DNA of 64,000 nucleotides from Eubacteriales bacterium (GTDB lineage Bacteria > Bacillota > Clostridia > Christensenellales > UBA1242): contig JAHAXB010000022.1 of NCBI GenBank assembly GCA_018384735.1, positions 68,087 to 132,086 on the forward strand. Reading direction: 5' to 3'. The translations under genes were made by a program, and so were the position numbers. Below, piece after piece: positions 26,231-32,546 of the stretch (its first letter is position 1; every line of letters starts with the position of its first letter). The notes under the pieces were generated by a model that was not told where the DNA came from, ran no database searches, and saw only the letters and a program-made list of their open reading frames with translations.

Positions 26231-26785
26231 TTGATTAGCATAAATCCGCCACTGAAAACATATTTATCATATTGCATGGCAACAATTTTAACCTTTGCAT
26301 TCGCTTTTGGGTCGGCAATGTATGCTTTTTCCAATAAGTATTTATTAGTTTTGGTCGTTTTGTTGTTTTATATCATCTTGCAAAGGTTGTTGCATTGGCA
26401 CCGTCGCCAAAAATTTTTACACCAAACTATGATTAAGCAGGGTGGGAAAAGTTTCCGGCTAAATGGTTTGCTGGATTCAGGGAACGCTTTGATGGACCCA
26501 GTTTCCCAACAACCAGTATCAATTATATCGTTACCTGTATTTTTAAAAATGTTTCCGGAAATTTCGGCGGAACAAATTGTTTTTAATCAGTTAGATGCTT
26601 GTGTTACAGGTCATTACATTGATTGTCAAACTGTCAACGGTAAAGGTCAAGTATTCGTTTTTGCGCCGGATAAAATGCAAATTGACGGCACTACGGTTAA
26701 CGGCTTATTGGGTGTTAGTACACAAAATTTTGGTCATCAAAAATATGATGCCATCTTAAATATAAAATTAGGGGGATTATTATGA
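26231..26785 (+). CDS. spoIIGA: Sigma-E processing aspartic protease SpoIIGA, unusually short (169-184 aa)
   Basis: [12 protein letters not shown] active-site motif. Hydrophobic N-terminus with ~2 TM. Immediately upstream of and overlapping pro-sigE. Alternative start ATG 26276. Confidence 0.75.
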
Positions 26786-27504
26786 ATCTAATTGCTAAGG
26801 CGGTCGCACTGTTTAAACAAATTAACTTGATTGAAAATAATTGGGATGATAATGGCATCTTCTTTATTAACGGCACCGAAGCTTTGGAACGCCCTTTACC
26901 CAAAGAGGAAGAGGAACTCTTGTTGCAGGAATTGGACCAAGGTAAGCCCGAAACGCGTCAAAAACTAATTTCGCACAATTTGCGGTTGGTAGTTTATATC
27001 GCTAAAAAATTTGAAAATACTGGCATTGATATTGAAGACTTAATCAGTATCGGTTCGATTGGTCTAATTAAAGCGGTAAACAGTTTTAAATATGATAAAA
27101 ATATTAAACTGGCAACATACAGTAGCCGTTGTATCGAAAATGAAATCTTAATGTATTTGCGTAAAGTACAAAAAACGCGTAGCGATGTGTCCATGGATGA
27201 AGCCATAAACGCGGATAGCGATGGCAGCGAAATTCGACTCGGCGATGTAATTTGCACAACCGAAACCAATGTTGACGACGAATTGGATATGAAAGTTGAA
27301 AAAAATTTATTGTGGTTGGCGGTGGATAAATTATCAATTCGCGAGCAAGAAATCATGCAGTTGCGTTTTGGGCTAGGCGGTGGAAAAGAACGCACGCAAA
27401 AAGAGGTTGCCAATATGTTGGAAATTTCCCAATCATACATTTCCCGTTTGGAAAAAAAAATTCTTAACCGCCTGAAAAAAGAATTTAACAAAATTGACAA
27501 CTAA
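26782..27504 (+). CDS. sigE: Sporulation sigma factor pro-sigma-E
   Basis: ~27-aa pro-sequence then [52 protein letters not shown], region 4 HTH. Follows spoIIGA. Confidence 0.9.
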
Positions 27505-27541: not shown

Positions 27542-28561
27542 ATGAATTTTTTACCTTGGGTGATTGTGTTAGTGCTGATTATAGCATTTTTAACCTTTTG
27601 TTCGTTCTTTAACATGGTGTTATGGATTCGTGCTTTAATTTCCGGTGCTCACATTTCGGTCGGTGAATTGATTTCCATGACCGTTAAAAAATTGGACGCG
27701 CGTAGTATTGTTAATATTTACATTAAAGCTCGTAAGGCCGGAGTTAACATTACCATTGCACAAATTGAAAACCACTTACAAGCACACGGCAACATTGAGT
27801 CTGTGATTAACGCGTTGATTGCGGCACAAAGTGCGAATTTAGAAGAATTGGATTTGAAAACTGCGATTGCGGTCGACCTTTCCGGACGTGATATCAATGA
27901 TGCTGTTAAACACCGCATCATGCCACAAATTATCCAAATCAATAACATTACCGCGATGGCAAAGAACGGTATTGAGGTTTCGGTTAGTGTCAAAGTTACC
28001 GTGCGTGTGAATTTGAAACGCATTATTGGTGGCGCGTTGGAAGAAACCATCATTGCGCGTATCAGTGAAGGTATTATGACCATCATCGGTAATGCTGCTA
28101 CGCATAATGAAATTTTGGAAGCACCAAACATTATTACCAAAACCATTATGGCAAACAAAGATTTGGCTGCGGATACTGCGTTTGACGTTTTGTCTTTGGA
28201 CATCGTAGATATGAAAGTTGGTCGTAACATCGGTGCCGAATTAGAAATTGATAAAGCTGAAGCAGTTAAATACATTAGCCAAGCAGATGCCGAAAAACGT
28301 CGTGCGGAAGCTGTGGCAGCGGAACAGGAAATGCGTGCCTTAACCCAAGAAATGCGCGCACGTGTTGTCGCTGCCGAATCCGAAGTACCAAGAGCGTTGG
28401 CAGGTGCTTTGAAATATGGCAACATTGATGTGAAAGACTACATGAAAATGGAAAATATCCAAAGCGACACTTTAATGCGTAAAGCCTTAAGTGGTGCCGC
28501 TAACTCTGATATGTTAACTCCGGCATTGAATCCGCCGAAGAAAAAAACTAAATTACAATAA
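27542..28561 (+). CDS. floA: Flotillin-like protein FloA (YqfA/UPF0365)
   Basis: N-terminal TM, SGAHISVGELISM..., C-terminal Ala/Glu-rich coiled coil. Synteny with the B. subtilis yqfA region. Confidence 0.85.
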   Translation: MNFLPWVIVLVLIIAFLTFCSFFNMVLWIRALISGAHISVGELISMTVKKLDARSIVNIYIKARKAGVNITIAQIENHLQAHGNIESVINALIAAQSANLEELDLKTAIAVDLSGRDINDAVKHRIMPQIIQINNITAMAKNGIEVSVSVKVTVRVNLKRIIGGALEETIIARISEGIMTIIGNAATHNEILEAPNIITKTIMANKDLAADTAFDVLSLDIVDMKVGRNIGAELEIDKAEAVKYISQADAEKRRAEAVAAEQEMRALTQEMRARVVAAESEVPRALAGALKYGNIDVKDYMKMENIQSDTLMRKALSGAANSDMLTPALNPPKKKTKLQ

Positions 28562-28570
28562 GGAGCACAA

Positions 28571-29023
28571 ATGGCAGAGGGATATCTTGGTTATGTAATT
28601 GCAGCATTGGTCATCCTAGCCGTAGTTTTGGTTGTTTTTCTTTTGGCTGATAAATTTTTAAAACAAGATGGCAGCAAGGTTACCAAAGACAAAAAAACTG
28701 ATGAACCCGCCGTCGAAAAACCAGTGGGAAAAGTTCCGGAAGCCCCGAAATCACCGGTCTTGCAAATTTACAATAGTGAGTTGGCGGACGACTTAAACGA
28801 AATGTTGAAACATACTGACAGCAGTGAAAATTCTCGTTTGAACATTGAAAGCCACCTCGACCGTGAAAGTAACATAAGCCGATACATCCATGAAAAGAAA
28901 TACGAAGGTTTCAATTTTGCTGACGACAACGCGCCGGCAGAGGAAGAAGACCAACCGATGAAATTTACGCGCGAAGATTATAAAAAATTTATGGCACTCA
29001 GTAATATTGACGACCCGAAATAA
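28571..29023 (+). CDS. Hypothetical single-pass membrane protein with acidic tail
   Basis: AAGGAG SD, N-terminal TM (VIAALVILAVVLVVFLL). Occupies the position of yqfB. Confidence 0.6.
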   Translation: MAEGYLGYVIAALVILAVVLVVFLLADKFLKQDGSKVTKDKKTDEPAVEKPVGKVPEAPKSPVLQIYNSELADDLNEMLKHTDSSENSRLNIESHLDRESNISRYIHEKKYEGFNFADDNAPAEEEDQPMKFTREDYKKFMALSNIDDPK

Positions 29024-29035
29024 TTATAAATAGAT

Positions 29036-29251
29036 GTGAAAGATTTTTTTATTCATCAAGATTTGGATAACAAAGTTGTGGTCGGTGGGGTAATGTCGTT
29101 GATGGATTTTGCTGTGGAAAAAATCGTGCTTAGGGTTAAAGGTGGCTTAATTGATGTTTGCGGTAAGGATTTGGTCATTGAAAGATTTGACGAAAATGAA
29201 ATTACCGTCATTGGCAAAATCAGTGGAGTTTTAACCAATGTCACACATTAG
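29036..29251 (+). CDS. yqfC: YabP/YqfC-family sporulation protein
   Basis: 71-aa protein with a YabP-like pattern (KIVLRVKGGLIDVCGKDLVIERF..EITVIGKI). Precedes and overlaps yqfD. Confidence 0.7.
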   Translation: MKDFFIHQDLDNKVVVGGVMSLMDFAVEKIVLRVKGGLIDVCGKDLVIERFDENEITVIGKISGVLTNVTH

Positions 29252-29975
29252 CAATTTCCTTTGTGGCAAGGTCGAATTTCGCGTGCAGGGCTTGCCGCTG
29301 TCATGCTTAAACAAATTGCGACGCTATCATATTCGCAACATAACGGTTGTTGACGATACAACCATTTTCCAAACGGCTTTGGTGCATTGTGCTGCAATTA
29401 AAAAATTAGTTAGTAATTTTGAATATCAAGTTACCGAAAATTACAATTTATTTCGTGGGGTCAATTTTTTGCTGAACCACATGGTTTTGGTGGTTGCGGT
29501 ACTTTTAGCGTTGACCGCGTTCTTTTGGGCTGATATGAAAATTTATCAAGTGCGGGTGCAGTGCAACGACGCTAATTTGGTACCTGCAATTTATGAACAC
29601 CTTAACCAAATCGGTGTGAAAAAGTTTATGCCCAAAAGTCAATTACGCCATTTCGATTTGAGTGCGGATTTAGTGGCAACTTTTGACCATGTTGCGCACG
29701 CGCATGTCCGTGTTTCGGGAAATACTTTGGTTGTTGACTTGGTCACTGCAACCAACCAAACCAAAAAGGTTAAAACCAATATCTACGCACAATATGACGC
29801 CGTAATTAAAGAAATCACTGCGTATAGCGGCACTGCATTGGTCACAGTGGGGGATGTTGTGAAAAAAGGCGATTTATTGGTAACCGATGCTTATCCCGAC
29901 AGCGTGGTCGTGACGGGCGAAGTCGCGTTTACCAATGGCGAACAAATTAGTCGGTTGGTGATTTGGATAATTTAG
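29238..29975 (+). CDS. yqfD: Sporulation protein YqfD (short, 245 aa)
   Basis: GKVEFRVQG, central TM, GTALVTVGDVVKKGDLLV typical of the YqfD family. Confidence 0.7.
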   Translation: MSHISNFLCGKVEFRVQGLPLSCLNKLRRYHIRNITVVDDTTIFQTALVHCAAIKKLVSNFEYQVTENYNLFRGVNFLLNHMVLVVAVLLALTAFFWADMKIYQVRVQCNDANLVPAIYEHLNQIGVKKFMPKSQLRHFDLSADLVATFDHVAHAHVRVSGNTLVVDLVTATNQTKKVKTNIYAQYDAVIKEITAYSGTALVTVGDVVKKGDLLVTDAYPDSVVVTGEVAFTNGEQISRLVIWII

Positions 29976-29991
29976 CGTATACTGTAGCAAC

Positions 29992-30369
29992 ATGGAAGTT
30001 TTAGAAGCAGTGTGTCAAGTGTTAAAGGTTGACCCGAAAACGGTCGAAGTAAATTATGCTTTTGTCAGCCCGCGTGAAATTCATCGTTTGAATTTACAGT
30101 TCCGTCAAGTTGACCGACCCACCGATGTTTTATCGTTTCCCGACGGCGACATCAATCCTGAAACCAACCGCCGTTTCATGGGTGATGTTTTGATTTGTCG
30201 TGCGGTTGCTAAGCGTCAAGCCAAAGAACTTGGTCACAGCTTGGCGCGCGAAATTACTTTCTTACAAGTACATGGCACTTTGCACTTATTTGGCTATGAC
30301 CACATCGAACCCGAAGATGAAGTAAAAATGCTTGGACTACAACGCGAAATTATGGCATTATTATCTTGA
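29992..30369 (+). CDS. ybeY: rRNA maturation endoribonuclease YbeY
   Basis: HGTLHLFGYDH zinc motif. Confidence 0.93.
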   Translation: MEVLEAVCQVLKVDPKTVEVNYAFVSPREIHRLNLQFRQVDRPTDVLSFPDGDINPETNRRFMGDVLICRAVAKRQAKELGHSLAREITFLQVHGTLHLFGYDHIEPEDEVKMLGLQREIMALLS

Positions 30370-30791
30370 TGGATTTCATGTTAAGTAAAGAAATCATTGC
30401 ACGATTGATTGATACGGCGAAGAATTACGCTGATAATGCTTACTGTCCGTATTCGGGTGTGGCGGTGGGCGCTGCGCTTTTGTGCAGTGATAATATCATT
30501 TTGGGTGGTTGTAACATTGAAACCGGCGACTATGCAGCACCGTCTTTTGGTGCGGGGGACACCGCGATTGCTAAGGCAATTAGCGAGGGTTACAACCAAA
30601 TGTTGGCCATGTGTTTTTATTCCAAGGACCGTTTAGTTTATCCGAACGCTACCACGCGTCAATATTTGTGTGAGTTTAATGGCGACATTAAAATCATTGT
30701 TGCGAATGATCAAACTTACGAAGTAATCGACAGTTTGGGTGCAATCTATTTGTTCCCGCCGGTCGGTGATGGAGATCAAGCAGGCGCATGA
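30366..30791 (+). CDS. cdd: Cytidine deaminase homolog lacking the zinc ligands and catalytic Glu
   Basis: Aligns with B. subtilis Cdd (AYCPYSGVAVGAALL, GCNIE, TAIAKAISEG), but CAER reads GAGD and PCGACRQ reads PNATTRQ. ATGA overlaps with both ybeY and era. Confidence 0.85.
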   Translation: MMDFMLSKEIIARLIDTAKNYADNAYCPYSGVAVGAALLCSDNIILGGCNIETGDYAAPSFGAGDTAIAKAISEGYNQMLAMCFYSKDRLVYPNATTRQYLCEFNGDIKIIVANDQTYEVIDSLGAIYLFPPVGDGDQAGA

Positions 30792-31654
30792 GTACGATTA
30801 ACAAATGTGGCAGTGTTGCGCTGTTGGGCGAACCTAACGCCGGTAAAAGTTCTTTAATCAATGCCTTAGTTGGTTGCAAAGTGGCAATTACCGCACCAAT
30901 GGCGGGAACCACTCGTGACGCAATCCGTGGAATTTTGAATACGGCAAACTCCCAAATTATTTTTGTTGACACGCCGGGGATGCAACGCGCTACCAATTTA
31001 TTGGAACACAAAATGAACCGCGCAATTTCCGGTGCTGTCAAGTCCGCCGATGTGATTTGCTTTGTTTTGGATGTCAACCATGTGACCGATAAAGTGTTAT
31101 CCAAGTTGGCAAACTATCGCGATTTCGGGGTGCCGGTCATTGTTGTTGTTTCCAAAATTGACAGCGCGAAACCTGAAAAATTGTTCCGTGTTTTGGATCA
31201 AATTAAACAATATGATTTTGTGAAAGAATTTGTTCCTGTGTCGTCTGTGAAAAAAATCGGTTTGGAAGAGTTATTGCAATGCTTGGAAAAATATATACCG
31301 GCGGGAAAACCCATCTATGAAAACGAAATTTACACCGACACCAGCGAACGCACCATGGCGGCTGAAATTATCCGTGAAGCCATTATCAACCAACTACGCG
31401 ACGAAGTACCGACCGGCGTTAAGGTTGTGATTACTAAATTTGAAACGGTGGAACGCACAATCAATATTGATGCTGACATTGTTTGCGATAAACCTAACCA
31501 TAAAAAAATCATTATCGGCAACCAAGGCAAATTGATTCGCGCGGTTGGTATTACTGCACGCAAAAAACTGGAAGAACTTTTGGGACAGCACGTTATGTTG
31601 CATACCTTTGTGATTGTGCGCGAGGGTTGGCGCGACCAAACCCAATGGCTGTAA
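30788..31654 (+). CDS. era: GTPase Era
   Basis: G1 GEPNAGKSS, G3 DTPG, G4 reads SKID, C-terminal KH domain. Confidence 0.95.
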   Translation: MSTINKCGSVALLGEPNAGKSSLINALVGCKVAITAPMAGTTRDAIRGILNTANSQIIFVDTPGMQRATNLLEHKMNRAISGAVKSADVICFVLDVNHVTDKVLSKLANYRDFGVPVIVVVSKIDSAKPEKLFRVLDQIKQYDFVKEFVPVSSVKKIGLEELLQCLEKYIPAGKPIYENEIYTDTSERTMAAEIIREAIINQLRDEVPTGVKVVITKFETVERTINIDADIVCDKPNHKKIIIGNQGKLIRAVGITARKKLEELLGQHVMLHTFVIVREGWRDQTQWL

Positions 31655-31658
31655 GAAG

Positions 31659-32546
31659 TTAGTAATACTTTTTGCGGCTGTTGATGAGTTCCCAGTATTG
31701 ATAATCGAGGGAGCGGAAAACGCGTTGCGCACTGATAACGGTAACGTGGGCATTAACCAATGCATCGACCACATCTTGAACACGTTCAGGTTTCAAATTG
31801 ACAATCACTTGGTCGCCACAAAGACGGGCAGGAACTTGGAAAACGTCTTCAAGTACTTTGGCGGCGTAGTTTGGTTCGGCAACGGTTACGCCCAATTTTG
31901 CATTGTCAAGTTCGCGGGCAACCATGGCGTTGTAAGATTGAATGCTGATAATCATGCCGTCATCAATAAATGCAATGGTGTCGCAAAATTCCTCGACCGC
32001 GGAAATCTTGGAGGCCGTAACCATGATTGAGGTGCGGAGTTCCTTACCAATCTTCTTTAACAAAACGCGTAAGTCCTTGGCTTGTTGTTTATCTAAGTTA
32101 GCGAACGGATTATCCAAAATTAAAATGTCGGTGCGTAAAATTAATGGTAAAGACATTTTTAGTAAGTCACGTTCCGCCAAGGTCAATTCGGAAATTTTGT
32201 GGTTATAGTGTTTGCGCAAGTTAAATAACGCCAAAATATTTTTTGCATTGCGTCCGTGGTAAGCGTGGTCGCGTAATTTGCAATAATCCTTAATCGCGTT
32301 TTTCACGGTAATATGGGGCATTAACTGTTCGTGCGGAATAAAAGCGCCCATGTATTGGTTAGCGGAAACTTTAATTGAACCGCGTGTTTTGTGTGATAAA
32401 GTTAAAATCAATTTTGACAATAAACTTTTACCGCTGGCGTGTTCACCTACCAAAGCCAAAATTTCGCCTTCGTGCAAAGTTAAATTAACATCGGTCATTA
32501 ACATTTTTTTAGAATCGGCTTTTTCCAAATTAGTTACTGTTAACAT
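31659..32546 (-). CDS. ABC-type ATPase with degenerate catalytic motifs
   Basis: Walker A GEHASGKS is intact. Signature reads LTLAE, Walker B ILILDN (Glu to Asn), H-loop position TASK (His to Lys). Start ATG 32546 overlaps the upstream stop. The rest of ORF 31659..32822 is an upstream extension. Confidence 0.8.
   Translation of the reverse strand: MLTVTNLEKADSKKMLMTDVNLTLHEGEILALVGEHASGKSLLSKLILTLSHKTRGSIKVSANQYMGAFIPHEQLMPHITVKNAIKDYCKLRDHAYHGRNAKNILALFNLRKHYNHKISELTLAERDLLKMSLPLILRTDILILDNPFANLDKQQAKDLRVLLKKIGKELRTSIMVTASKISAVEEFCDTIAFIDDGMIISIQSYNAMVARELDNAKLGVTVAEPNYAAKVLEDVFQVPARLCGDQVIVNLKPERVQDVVDALVNAHVTVISAQRVFRSLDYQYWELINSRKKYY

What the first reader, a model, noticed from the sequence alone, without database searches (positions are those of the whole stretch)
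30366..30791. Active-site-dead cytidine deaminase retained inside the ybeY-cdd-era operon
The 141-aa ORF aligns along its whole length with homotetrameric Cdd (AYCPYSGVAVGAALL, GCNIE, TAIAKAISEG). The catalytic motifs are replaced:
- The CAER motif reads G62-A-G-D, so zinc ligand Cys53 and catalytic Glu55 of B. subtilis Cdd are lost.
- PCGACRQ reads P93-N-A-T-T-R-Q, so Cys86 and Cys89 are lost.

No zinc site or proton shuttle can be formed. Despite this, the gene is intact and joined by ATGA overlaps to both ybeY and era. That pattern argues for maintenance, either as a pseudoenzyme or as a coupling element for era translation, rather than recent inactivation.
Basis: partly seen in the sequence, partly recalled or inferred. 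Interest (0 to 1): 0.6.

Follow-up and report, generated by a model that had tools for sequence, protein, structure and literature searches.

The report
Dead cytidine deaminase kept beside YbeY
A tiny-genome gut Clostridia lineage keeps, under very strong selection, a cytidine deaminase that has lost every residue needed for catalysis. The gene is always wedged between the ribosome-maturation genes ybeY and era, so the fold probably has a second, non-enzymatic job there.

Summary
ORF 30369-30791 (140 aa from the conserved ATG) is a homotetramer-type Cdd by HMM, PDB sequence search and AF2/Foldseek (mouse CDA, TM 0.8, rmsd 1.6 Å). CAER reads GAGD and PCGxCRQ reads PNATTRQ.

- **Not decay.** All 17 genus relatives with a match carry it intact.
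- **Protein-level selection.** dN is 0.079 (ω≈0.05), lower than ybeY (0.142) and era (0.136).
- **Family-wide distribution.** In a 31-genus sample, the ybeY-adjacent copy is dead in all 8 genera that have one, with era directly downstream in 7. Active Cdd occurs only as a stand-alone gene elsewhere.
- **One lineage.** A Cdd tree separates all dead from all active copies (99%).
- **No coupling need.** 22 genera join ybeY directly to era, so era does not need a coupling ORF.
- **No salvage route.** No second cdd, udk, upp, pdp or pyrE was found in this 93%-complete genome.
- **Link to YbeY.** YbeY-Cdd fusion proteins are common in related Clostridia (2459 clusters).

Best reading: a selected pseudoenzyme, most likely a stoichiometric partner of YbeY. 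The partner role is inferred, not shown.

The scan found the same thing earlier on other genomes (e1-2840318, e1-3202323, e1-4848903). No paper in the held library describes it.

The parts
29992..30369 (+). ybeY (rRNA maturation RNase, 125 aa). Its TGA stop shares one base with the ATG of the dead cdd.
   Evidence: PF02130 at 130 bits and TIGR00043 at 131.8 bits. The junction T(G/A)ATG is conserved in 14 species of the genus, with no Shine-Dalgarno sequence upstream.
30369..30791 (+). Catalytically dead cytidine-deaminase-fold protein (Cdd*), 140 aa from the conserved ATG. The TTG at 30366 is an alternative start in this genome only.
   Evidence: HMM matches and PDB alignments. AF2 model pLDDT 88, pTM 0.82. 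Best Foldseek match is mouse CDA, TM 0.77-0.80, rmsd 1.6 Å. dN 0.079, ω 0.05.
30510..30521 (+). Retained C-N-I-E block. Its Asn and Glu correspond to B. subtilis Cdd N42 and E44, which bind the ribose 3'-OH.
   Evidence: Alignment to 1ux1/1jtk. Across 11 dead representatives the Glu is invariant and the Asn is present in 9. The residue roles come from established knowledge of B. subtilis Cdd structures.
30549..30560 (+). Former C-A-E-R motif, now G-A-G-D. The first zinc ligand and the catalytic Glu are lost, and the charge-balancing Arg is replaced by Asp.
   Evidence: Among dead genera the Cys position is D/G/S/N and the Glu position is G/A/I/V, never E.
30642..30662 (+). Former P-C-G-x-C-R-Q motif, now P-N-A-T-T-R-Q. 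The second and third zinc ligands are lost.
   Evidence: The motif is invariant within the genus apart from PNAGTRQ in G007. Among dead genera the positions are N/S/T and T/C/V/F/M/E/D.
30771..30775 (+). GGAGA inside the codons of the disordered C-terminal tail (D-G-D-Q). It is the likely Shine-Dalgarno sequence of era.
   Evidence: GGAG is conserved at this place in 11 of 14 species of the genus, and GGTGA lies closer to the ATG in the other three. Residues 130-140 have pLDDT below 50.
30788..30791 (+). ATGA overlap between the era start codon and the cdd* stop codon.
30788..31654 (+). era (GTPase Era, 288 aa).
   Evidence: NF000908 at 304 bits and TIGR00436 at 213 bits.

Best explanation
**Shown.**
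- The gene encodes a protein with the full homotetramer-type cytidine deaminase fold.
- It has none of the three zinc ligands, no catalytic glutamate and no base-stacking phenylalanine, so it cannot carry out the known deaminase reaction.
- It is not decaying. It belongs to one old lineage of dead copies that sit beside ybeY in at least 8 genera of a family of about 1-Mb gut Clostridia, with era directly downstream in 7 of them.
- It evolves more slowly than both flanking ribosome-biogenesis genes.

**Inferred (about 0.4-0.45 on its own).**
- Its retained function is non-catalytic and tied to YbeY. It is made in fixed ratio with YbeY by termination-reinitiation at the 1-nt stop/start overlap.
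- It acts as a (probably tetrameric) partner or scaffold of YbeY, and through YbeY of Era, during late 30S / 16S rRNA 3'-end maturation.
- It may use the retained ribose-binding Asn/Glu pocket to hold a nucleoside or an RNA 3' end.
- Its unstructured tail additionally carries era's ribosome-binding site.
For: **Dead site and intact fold.**
- Motif loss and fold.
- The other zinc deaminases of the same genome (tadA, comEB-like) keep H/CAE and PCxxC, so this is not a lineage-wide oddity.

**Selection.**
- dN 0.079 against 0.142 for ybeY and 0.136 for era. ω is 0.05 against 0.11 and 0.08, over 14 species.
- Identity is higher than Era in 119 of 120 genome pairs. The margin over Era is at least as large as for active operon copies in other families.

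**Age.**
- The split between all dead and all active copies has 99% UFBoot.
- Dead-bearing genera are scattered over the family tree.

**Not salvage.**
- No second cdd.
- No udk, upp, pdp, pyrE or dNK found in the 92.8%-complete genome.
- Active stand-alone cdd in sister genera co-occurs with a udk-like gene in 7 of 8 genera. Among dead-only genera this holds for 1 of 7.

**Link to YbeY.**
- The gene is always directly after ybeY, including in G007, where era is not downstream.
- YbeY-Cdd single-chain fusions form 2459 clusters in related Clostridia.
- YbeY-Era interaction and YbeY-Era fusions are documented (PMC10582724, PMC6738653).
Against: - No experiment or expression data exist.
- 22 of 31 sampled genera of the family have ybeY-era with no cdd between them. 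About half have no Cdd of any kind, so the role is dispensable in close relatives.
- In S. aureus, active Cdd did not interact with Era in two-hybrid or split-luciferase assays. YbeY-Cdd was not tested (PMC6738653).
- The AF2 model of a natural YbeY-Cdd fusion has pTM 0.67 despite pLDDT 92, so it predicts no confident fixed interface between the two domains.
- Former pocket residues vary between dead genera, which weakens the ligand-binding part of the inference.
- dS is saturated, so ω values are approximate.
Confidence: 0.55

Rival explanations
1. A stand-alone nucleoside, nucleotide or RNA-end binding protein (sensor or sequestering protein). It would use the old substrate pocket without chemistry, and its place next to ybeY/era would be only inherited synteny.
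For: - The ribose-binding Asn/Glu of the CNIE block are kept. The Glu is invariant and the Asn is present in 9 of 11 representatives.
- The fold is intact.
- Constraint is strong over the whole protein.
Against: - The base-stacking Phe (B. subtilis F24 and F125) is lost, and the residues at the former zinc site differ from genus to genus, which is not the pattern of a conserved ligand site.
- The gene never leaves ybeY, even in G007.
- YbeY-Cdd fusions point to joint action.
Confidence: 0.2
2. It is still an enzyme. A zinc-independent or differently liganded active site performs deamination or another reaction.
For: - Conservation is very strong within the genus, including the replaced motifs GAGD and PNATTRQ.
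- An acidic residue (D or E) often sits one position after the lost Glu.
Against: - No Cys, His or Glu is aligned with the ligands.
- The five former active-centre positions are variable across dead genera. D/E at +1 is replaced by K, S or G in g45, g34 and g26.
- No salvage route downstream was found.
Confidence: 0.07
3. It is the non-catalytic subunit of a mixed oligomer with an active deaminase. This would be a split version of the E. coli-type dimeric CDA, whose second domain has a broken active site.
For: - It matches PF08211 (the broken domain) about as well as PF00383.
- Tandem CDA proteins with one dead domain exist in the protein library.
- One genus (g45) has both a dead and an active copy.
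Against: - This genome and six of the other seven dead-bearing genera have no active Cdd.
- The only other CDA-superfamily genes here are tadA and a comEB-like gene.
Confidence: 0.05
4. The ORF is kept only as a translated spacer that delivers ribosomes to era (translational coupling) and carries era's Shine-Dalgarno sequence. The protein itself would have no function.
For: - The stop/start overlaps on both sides and the GGAG inside the tail codons are conserved.
Against: - ω is about 0.05 with saturated dS, and dN is below that of era itself. A spacer needs only an open frame.
- 22 genera have ybeY directly joined to era.
- G007 keeps the gene without era downstream.
Confidence: 0.03
5. It is a recently inactivated gene on its way to becoming a pseudogene.
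For: - The genome is reduced (0.98 Mb) and pyrimidine salvage was not found.
Against: - The gene is intact in 17 of 18 species and in 8 genera. The one TGA flagged in G023 was not found inside the extracted frame.
- The dead lineage is monophyletic and old.
Confidence: 0.01

Closest known systems
Homotetrameric cytidine deaminase Cdd (B. subtilis 1JTK, human 1MQ0, mouse 1ZAB/2FR6; TIGR01354, EC 3.5.4.5)
   Same: - Same fold (TM 0.77-0.80, rmsd 1.6 Å) and same single-domain length.
- 33-38% identity.
- Same position in the ybeY-(dgkA)-cdd-era operon.
- Ribose-binding Asn/Glu and the KAxSEG and RQ..EF blocks are retained.
   Different: - All three Zn-ligand cysteines, the catalytic Glu, the charge-balancing Arg and both base-stacking Phe are replaced.
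- HMM scores fall below the equivalog cut-offs.
- New conserved residues appear in helix 1 and strand 3 (K18, C82).
C-terminal 'broken active site' domain of dimeric E. coli-type cytidine deaminase (PF08211)
   Same: A CDA-fold unit without zinc ligands that is kept for a structural, non-catalytic role.
   Different: That domain is covalently joined to an active domain and completes its active site. Here the dead unit is a separate protein, and the genome has no active Cdd.
YbeY-Cdd fusion proteins of Christensenellales and other Clostridia (about 295 aa; PF02130 + PF00383)
   Same: Same gene order, with Cdd directly attached to YbeY. They argue for joint action of the two proteins.
   Different: The Cdd domain of the 120 fusions inspected keeps C[A/G]E and PCGxC. 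Here the two are separate but translationally coupled, and Cdd is dead.
Non-catalytic deaminase-fold partners such as ADAT3/Tad3 of the tRNA A34 deaminase
   Same: A CDA-superfamily member that has lost the proton-shuttling Glu and works as a binding partner.
   Different: ADAT3 keeps its zinc site and pairs with an active paralogue. Cdd* has no zinc site and no active paralogue partner.

Membership tests
Homotetrameric cytidine deaminase (TIGR01354 / EC 3.5.4.5) | CDA alpha/beta fold in a single domain of about 130-140 aa | tested here: met
   AF2 pLDDT 88, pTM 0.82. Foldseek top 40 hits are all tetrameric CDAs.
Homotetrameric cytidine deaminase (TIGR01354 / EC 3.5.4.5) | Three cysteine zinc ligands (C53, C86, C89 in B. 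subtilis) | tested here: not met
   They read G62, N94 and T97 in the alignments. They are absent in all dead-lineage members, except that the third Cys survives in g34 and g45.
Homotetrameric cytidine deaminase (TIGR01354 / EC 3.5.4.5) | Catalytic glutamate of the CAE motif | tested here: not met
   It reads G64. It is never E in any dead-lineage sequence.
Homotetrameric cytidine deaminase (TIGR01354 / EC 3.5.4.5) | Score above the curated equivalog cut-off | tested here: not met
   TIGR01354 scores 69.6 against 113.65. NF004064 scores 73.9 against 74.
Homotetrameric cytidine deaminase (TIGR01354 / EC 3.5.4.5) | Zinc content and cytidine/deoxycytidine deaminase activity; homotetramer | not testable with these tools
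   This needs recombinant protein.
Broken-domain of dimeric CDA (PF08211) | CDA-fold unit lacking zinc ligands | tested here: met
   PF08211 at 26 bits against a cut-off of 25. Motif loss is shown.
Broken-domain of dimeric CDA (PF08211) | Fused to, or accompanied by, an active CDA domain whose site it completes | tested here: not met
   It is a single-domain protein. No other cdd is present in the genome, only tadA and a comEB-like gene.
Selected pseudoenzyme (operational definition) | Catalytic residues lost but the protein is under purifying selection across species | tested here: met
   ω is 0.05 and dN is below that of the flanking essential genes. It is retained in 8 genera as one lineage.
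YbeY/Era 30S-maturation module | Physical or functional interaction with YbeY, Era or the 30S subunit | tested here: inconclusive
   Only genomic evidence is available: invariant adjacency and coupling and widespread YbeY-Cdd fusions. The AF2 model of a fusion gives pTM 0.67. No complex prediction or experiment was possible.

The most novel reading that the evidence does not exclude
The Cdd fold has a deaminase-independent role in YbeY/Era-dependent small-subunit maturation, not only in this lineage but in Firmicutes generally. That role would explain the so far 'enigmatic' ybeY-cdd-era synteny and the YbeY-Cdd fusions. This family would then be a natural separation-of-function mutant in which only the second role survives.
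Probability: 0.25. Interest if true: 0.8.

Novelty: new variant of a known kind. Interest (0 to 1): 0.62.

Why it matters
The Era review PMC10582724 lists as an open question what the persistent association of era (and ybeY) with cdd means. It calls the synteny with metabolic enzymes enigmatic.

A Cdd that cannot deaminate, in a genome where no pyrimidine salvage route was found, is nevertheless more conserved than YbeY and Era and never leaves ybeY. That is direct comparative evidence that the operon copy of Cdd can be selected for something other than its enzymatic reaction.

The question therefore becomes testable:
- dead-allele against deletion experiments in B. subtilis or S. aureus;
- interaction tests between YbeY and Cdd.

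It also means that these proteins, labelled 'cytidine deaminase' in public records, are mis-annotated for metabolic reconstruction.

Tried and rejected
- **AF2 of a natural YbeY-Cdd fusion (A3).** This was meant to show whether the two domains pack. The result was pLDDT 92 but pTM 0.67, which is inconclusive.
- **PhoH/YbeZ as a variable that might correlate with Cdd*.** It was not found in any of the 31 genera, so it does not discriminate.
- **RNA-level explanations.** There was no Rfam match at E≤0.1 in 28500-32500. Promoter-like sites are at chance level and terminator-like sites are below it. Saturated dS also rules out nucleotide-level constraint over the ORF.
- **Lineage-wide loss of zinc or cysteine sites** (prompted by e1-3615172). 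Rejected for deaminases, because tadA and the comEB-like gene keep their sites.
- **Hetero-oligomer with an active Cdd.** Rejected for this genome.
- **Literature.** Searches for a described dead bacterial Cdd or a YbeY-Cdd link found nothing beyond the synteny remarks.

Full report
**1. Observation**

Window 30366-30791 (+) holds an open frame of 141 codons from TTG 30366, or 140 from ATG 30369.

- It lies between ybeY (29992-30369; PF02130, 130 bits) and era (30788-31654; NF000908, 304 bits).
- It matches cytidine deaminase models at or below their curated cut-offs. PF00383 scores 26.5 against 25, NF004064 scores 73.9 against 74, and TIGR01354 scores 69.6 against 113.65.
- A phmmer search of PDB sequences finds only tetrameric cytidine deaminases, with mouse 1zab best at E 1.5e-15.
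- An AF2 model is confident (pLDDT 88.3, pTM 0.82) except for residues 130-140. Its best structural matches are mouse, human and Bacillus CDA (TM 0.73-0.80, rmsd 1.5-2.1 Å).

One correction is needed at the upstream junction.
- It is a 1-nt TGATG overlap, not ATGA.
- Several congeners have ATA or TTA in place of the TTG, so ATG 30369 is the conserved start.
- The downstream ATGA overlap with era is real and conserved.

**2. Not decay, and not a lineage-wide quirk**

The assembly is 983 kb in 77 contigs and 92.8% complete. Public records of near relatives are uncultured Clostridia MAGs from rumen and ruminant gut.

- Intact orthologues (61-98% identity) were found in 17 of 18 species of the genus. 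All carry (G/A/S)AGD and PNA(T/G)TRQ.
- Nei-Gojobori estimates were made over 14 species:

| Gene | median dN | ω |
|---|---|---|
| cdd* | 0.079 | 0.051 |
| ybeY | 0.142 | 0.106 |
| era | 0.136 | 0.083 |

- dS is saturated (at least 1.5), so ω is approximate. The dN ranking is robust.
- The dead protein is more conserved than Era in 119 of 120 genome pairs. At comparable depth (Era identity below 60%) its lead over Era is 9.6 points. The lead is 2.7 points for active operon copies in eight other families of the order. Constraint therefore did not relax after catalysis was lost.
- The two other CDA-superfamily genes of the genome, tadA and a comEB-like gene, keep H/CAE and PCxxC.

**3. Distribution**

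In a sample of 31 genera of the family (all about 0.8-1.3 Mb), ybeY lies immediately upstream of era in every genus for which both genes were recovered on one locus.

- In 22 genera the two genes are directly adjacent.
- In 8 genera (g1, g3, g6, g26, g33, g34, g35, g45) a cdd homologue follows ybeY, with era directly downstream in 7. Era was not found in the 83%-complete g33 genome.
- In all eight that homologue lacks the catalytic Glu and at least two zinc ligands.
- Full-scoring, motif-complete Cdd occurs in 8 genera (g2, g7, g29, g31, g32, g36, g44, g45). It is always away from ybeY and era. One genus (g45) has both kinds.
- In other families of the same order the operon copy is canonical.

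Tree evidence:
- An ML tree of Cdd sequences separates all active from all dead copies with 99% UFBoot.
- On a YbeY+Era tree the family is monophyletic (100%). The dead-bearing genera are scattered across it, although the backbone support is weak.
- The simplest history is one inactivation near the base of the family, long retention in several lineages, and repeated loss in others.
- A profile of the dead clade, searched against 1.84 billion representatives, finds about 18 dead-type 50%-identity clusters among the best 150. The rest are active Cdds.

**4. What it is not doing**

No second cdd was found. Also not found in this genome were udk, upp, pyrimidine-nucleoside phosphorylase, pyrE and deoxynucleoside kinase. 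pyrG is present.

- A cytidine-to-uridine step would therefore feed nothing that was found.
- Across the family, upp was found in 1 of 31 genera.
- A udk-like gene accompanies the stand-alone active Cdd in 7 of 8 genera. It accompanies dead-only genera in 1 of 7. This is descriptive only, because related genomes are not independent.
- A pure 'coupling ORF' role is excluded by the substitution pattern and by the 22 genera without it.
- It is also excluded by G007, where comEB-ybeY-cdd* is followed by a Polysacc_synt-type membrane protein and not by era.
- The only part that serves era is the disordered tail. Its codons D-G-D-Q spell GGAGA 13 nt before the era ATG.

**5. What it probably does**

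Positions at the former active centre differ between dead genera:

| B. subtilis position | Residues in dead genera |
|---|---|
| C53 | D/G/S/N |
| E55 | G/A/I/V |
| R56 | D/E/K/S/G |
| C86 | N/S/T |
| C89 | T/C/V/F/M/E/D |
| F24 | variable |

This argues against a new chemistry at the same site. Retained or newly conserved features are:
- the ribose-binding Asn/Glu (CNIE);
- the KAxSEG helix;
- RQ..EF;
- new conserved residues in helix 1 (I10, I14, K18) and strand 3 (C82).

The strongest contextual clue is YbeY.
- The gene never separates from ybeY.
- It has no Shine-Dalgarno sequence of its own in this genus and starts on the last base of the ybeY stop codon.
- In a same-order genome YbeY and Cdd are one 295-aa protein (L028). 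That architecture is widespread, with 2459 clusters at E≤1e-10. All 120 inspected fusions have an intact deaminase motif.
- YbeY and Era are known to interact and are themselves sometimes fused (PMC10582724).

I therefore favour a stoichiometric, non-catalytic partner of YbeY in late 30S maturation. This step is inferred.

Evidence against the inference:
- S. aureus Cdd did not bind Era (PMC6738653). YbeY-Cdd was not tested there.
- AF2 gives no confident inter-domain geometry for a fusion (pTM 0.67).
- Many relatives do without the gene.

**6. Comparison with the known**

The closest family is tetrameric Cdd. The fold and context features are met, while the catalytic features were tested and not met, so it should not be filed as a cytidine deaminase.

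- The nearest precedent for a dead CDA unit is the broken second domain of dimeric CDA (PF08211). Tandem examples appear. That domain always accompanies an active one, which is absent here.
- Literature searches found no description of a dead stand-alone bacterial Cdd or of YbeY-Cdd fusions.
- The Era review explicitly lists the cdd-era association as an open question.
- The scan itself had already noted the same protein on other genomes (e1-2840318 with a follow-up, e1-3202323, e1-4848903). My results agree with those notes. They add the family-wide distribution, the active-versus-dead tree, the comparison of rates with active lineages and the salvage-gene survey.

**7. Verdict**

The pseudoenzyme reading is supported, and the coupling-element reading is rejected. 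This is a new non-catalytic variant of a known enzyme family. The mechanism is plausible but untested.

Noticed in passing
L028:1000-1887 (G032, same order): YbeY and an active Cdd are one 295-aa protein. The protein database holds 2459 clusters of this architecture (PF02130 + PF00383) at E≤1e-10, named only 'cytidine deaminase'. All 120 inspected keep C[A/G]E and PCGxC. No paper in the held library mentions it.
   Followed up: partly
whole genome G000 (window is C7:68087-132086): No pyrE, udk, upp, pyrimidine-nucleoside phosphorylase or deoxynucleoside kinase was found in a 92.8%-complete genome, although pyrG is present. No route from bases or nucleosides to UMP was found, which suggests uptake of nucleotides.
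   Followed up: partly
window 29992-30369: YbeY of this genus is only 125 aa (Pfam model positions 14-127). In sister genera it is 150-185 aa. An N-terminal segment of about 25-35 residues appears to be missing.
   Followed up: no
L108 (G047, genus g30): The era match lies in a 458-aa open frame that also covers the ybeY match just upstream. This is probably a YbeY-Era fusion of the kind listed in PMC10582724.
   Followed up: no
family f1, 31 genera: PhoH/YbeZ (PF02562), the usual operon partner of YbeY, was not found in any of the 31 sampled genera.
   Followed up: partly
L021 (G007, divergent species of the genus): The arrangement here is comEB-like dCMP deaminase, ybeY, dead cdd, then a Polysacc_synt-type membrane protein. 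Era was not found anywhere in this 85%-complete assembly.
   Followed up: partly
P0214, P0223: Two Cdd-like proteins of about 166 aa have an N-terminal signal-peptide-like segment, no Cys ligands (TAAE/GAEQ ... YPTGPDRQ) and an unknown source. They may be an independent, possibly secreted, dead Cdd lineage.
   Followed up: no
window 29238-29975: The YqfD homologue is 245 aa and covers only positions 1-225 of the 379-position Pfam model. It is preceded by a YabP-family gene (29036-29251) and a pro-sigma-like gene (26782-27504). These look like remnants of sporulation genes in a 1-Mb genome.
   Followed up: no
Together with the dead Cdd, this suggests the lineage keeps several enzyme folds after loss of their metal or cysteine chemistry.
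   Followed up: no
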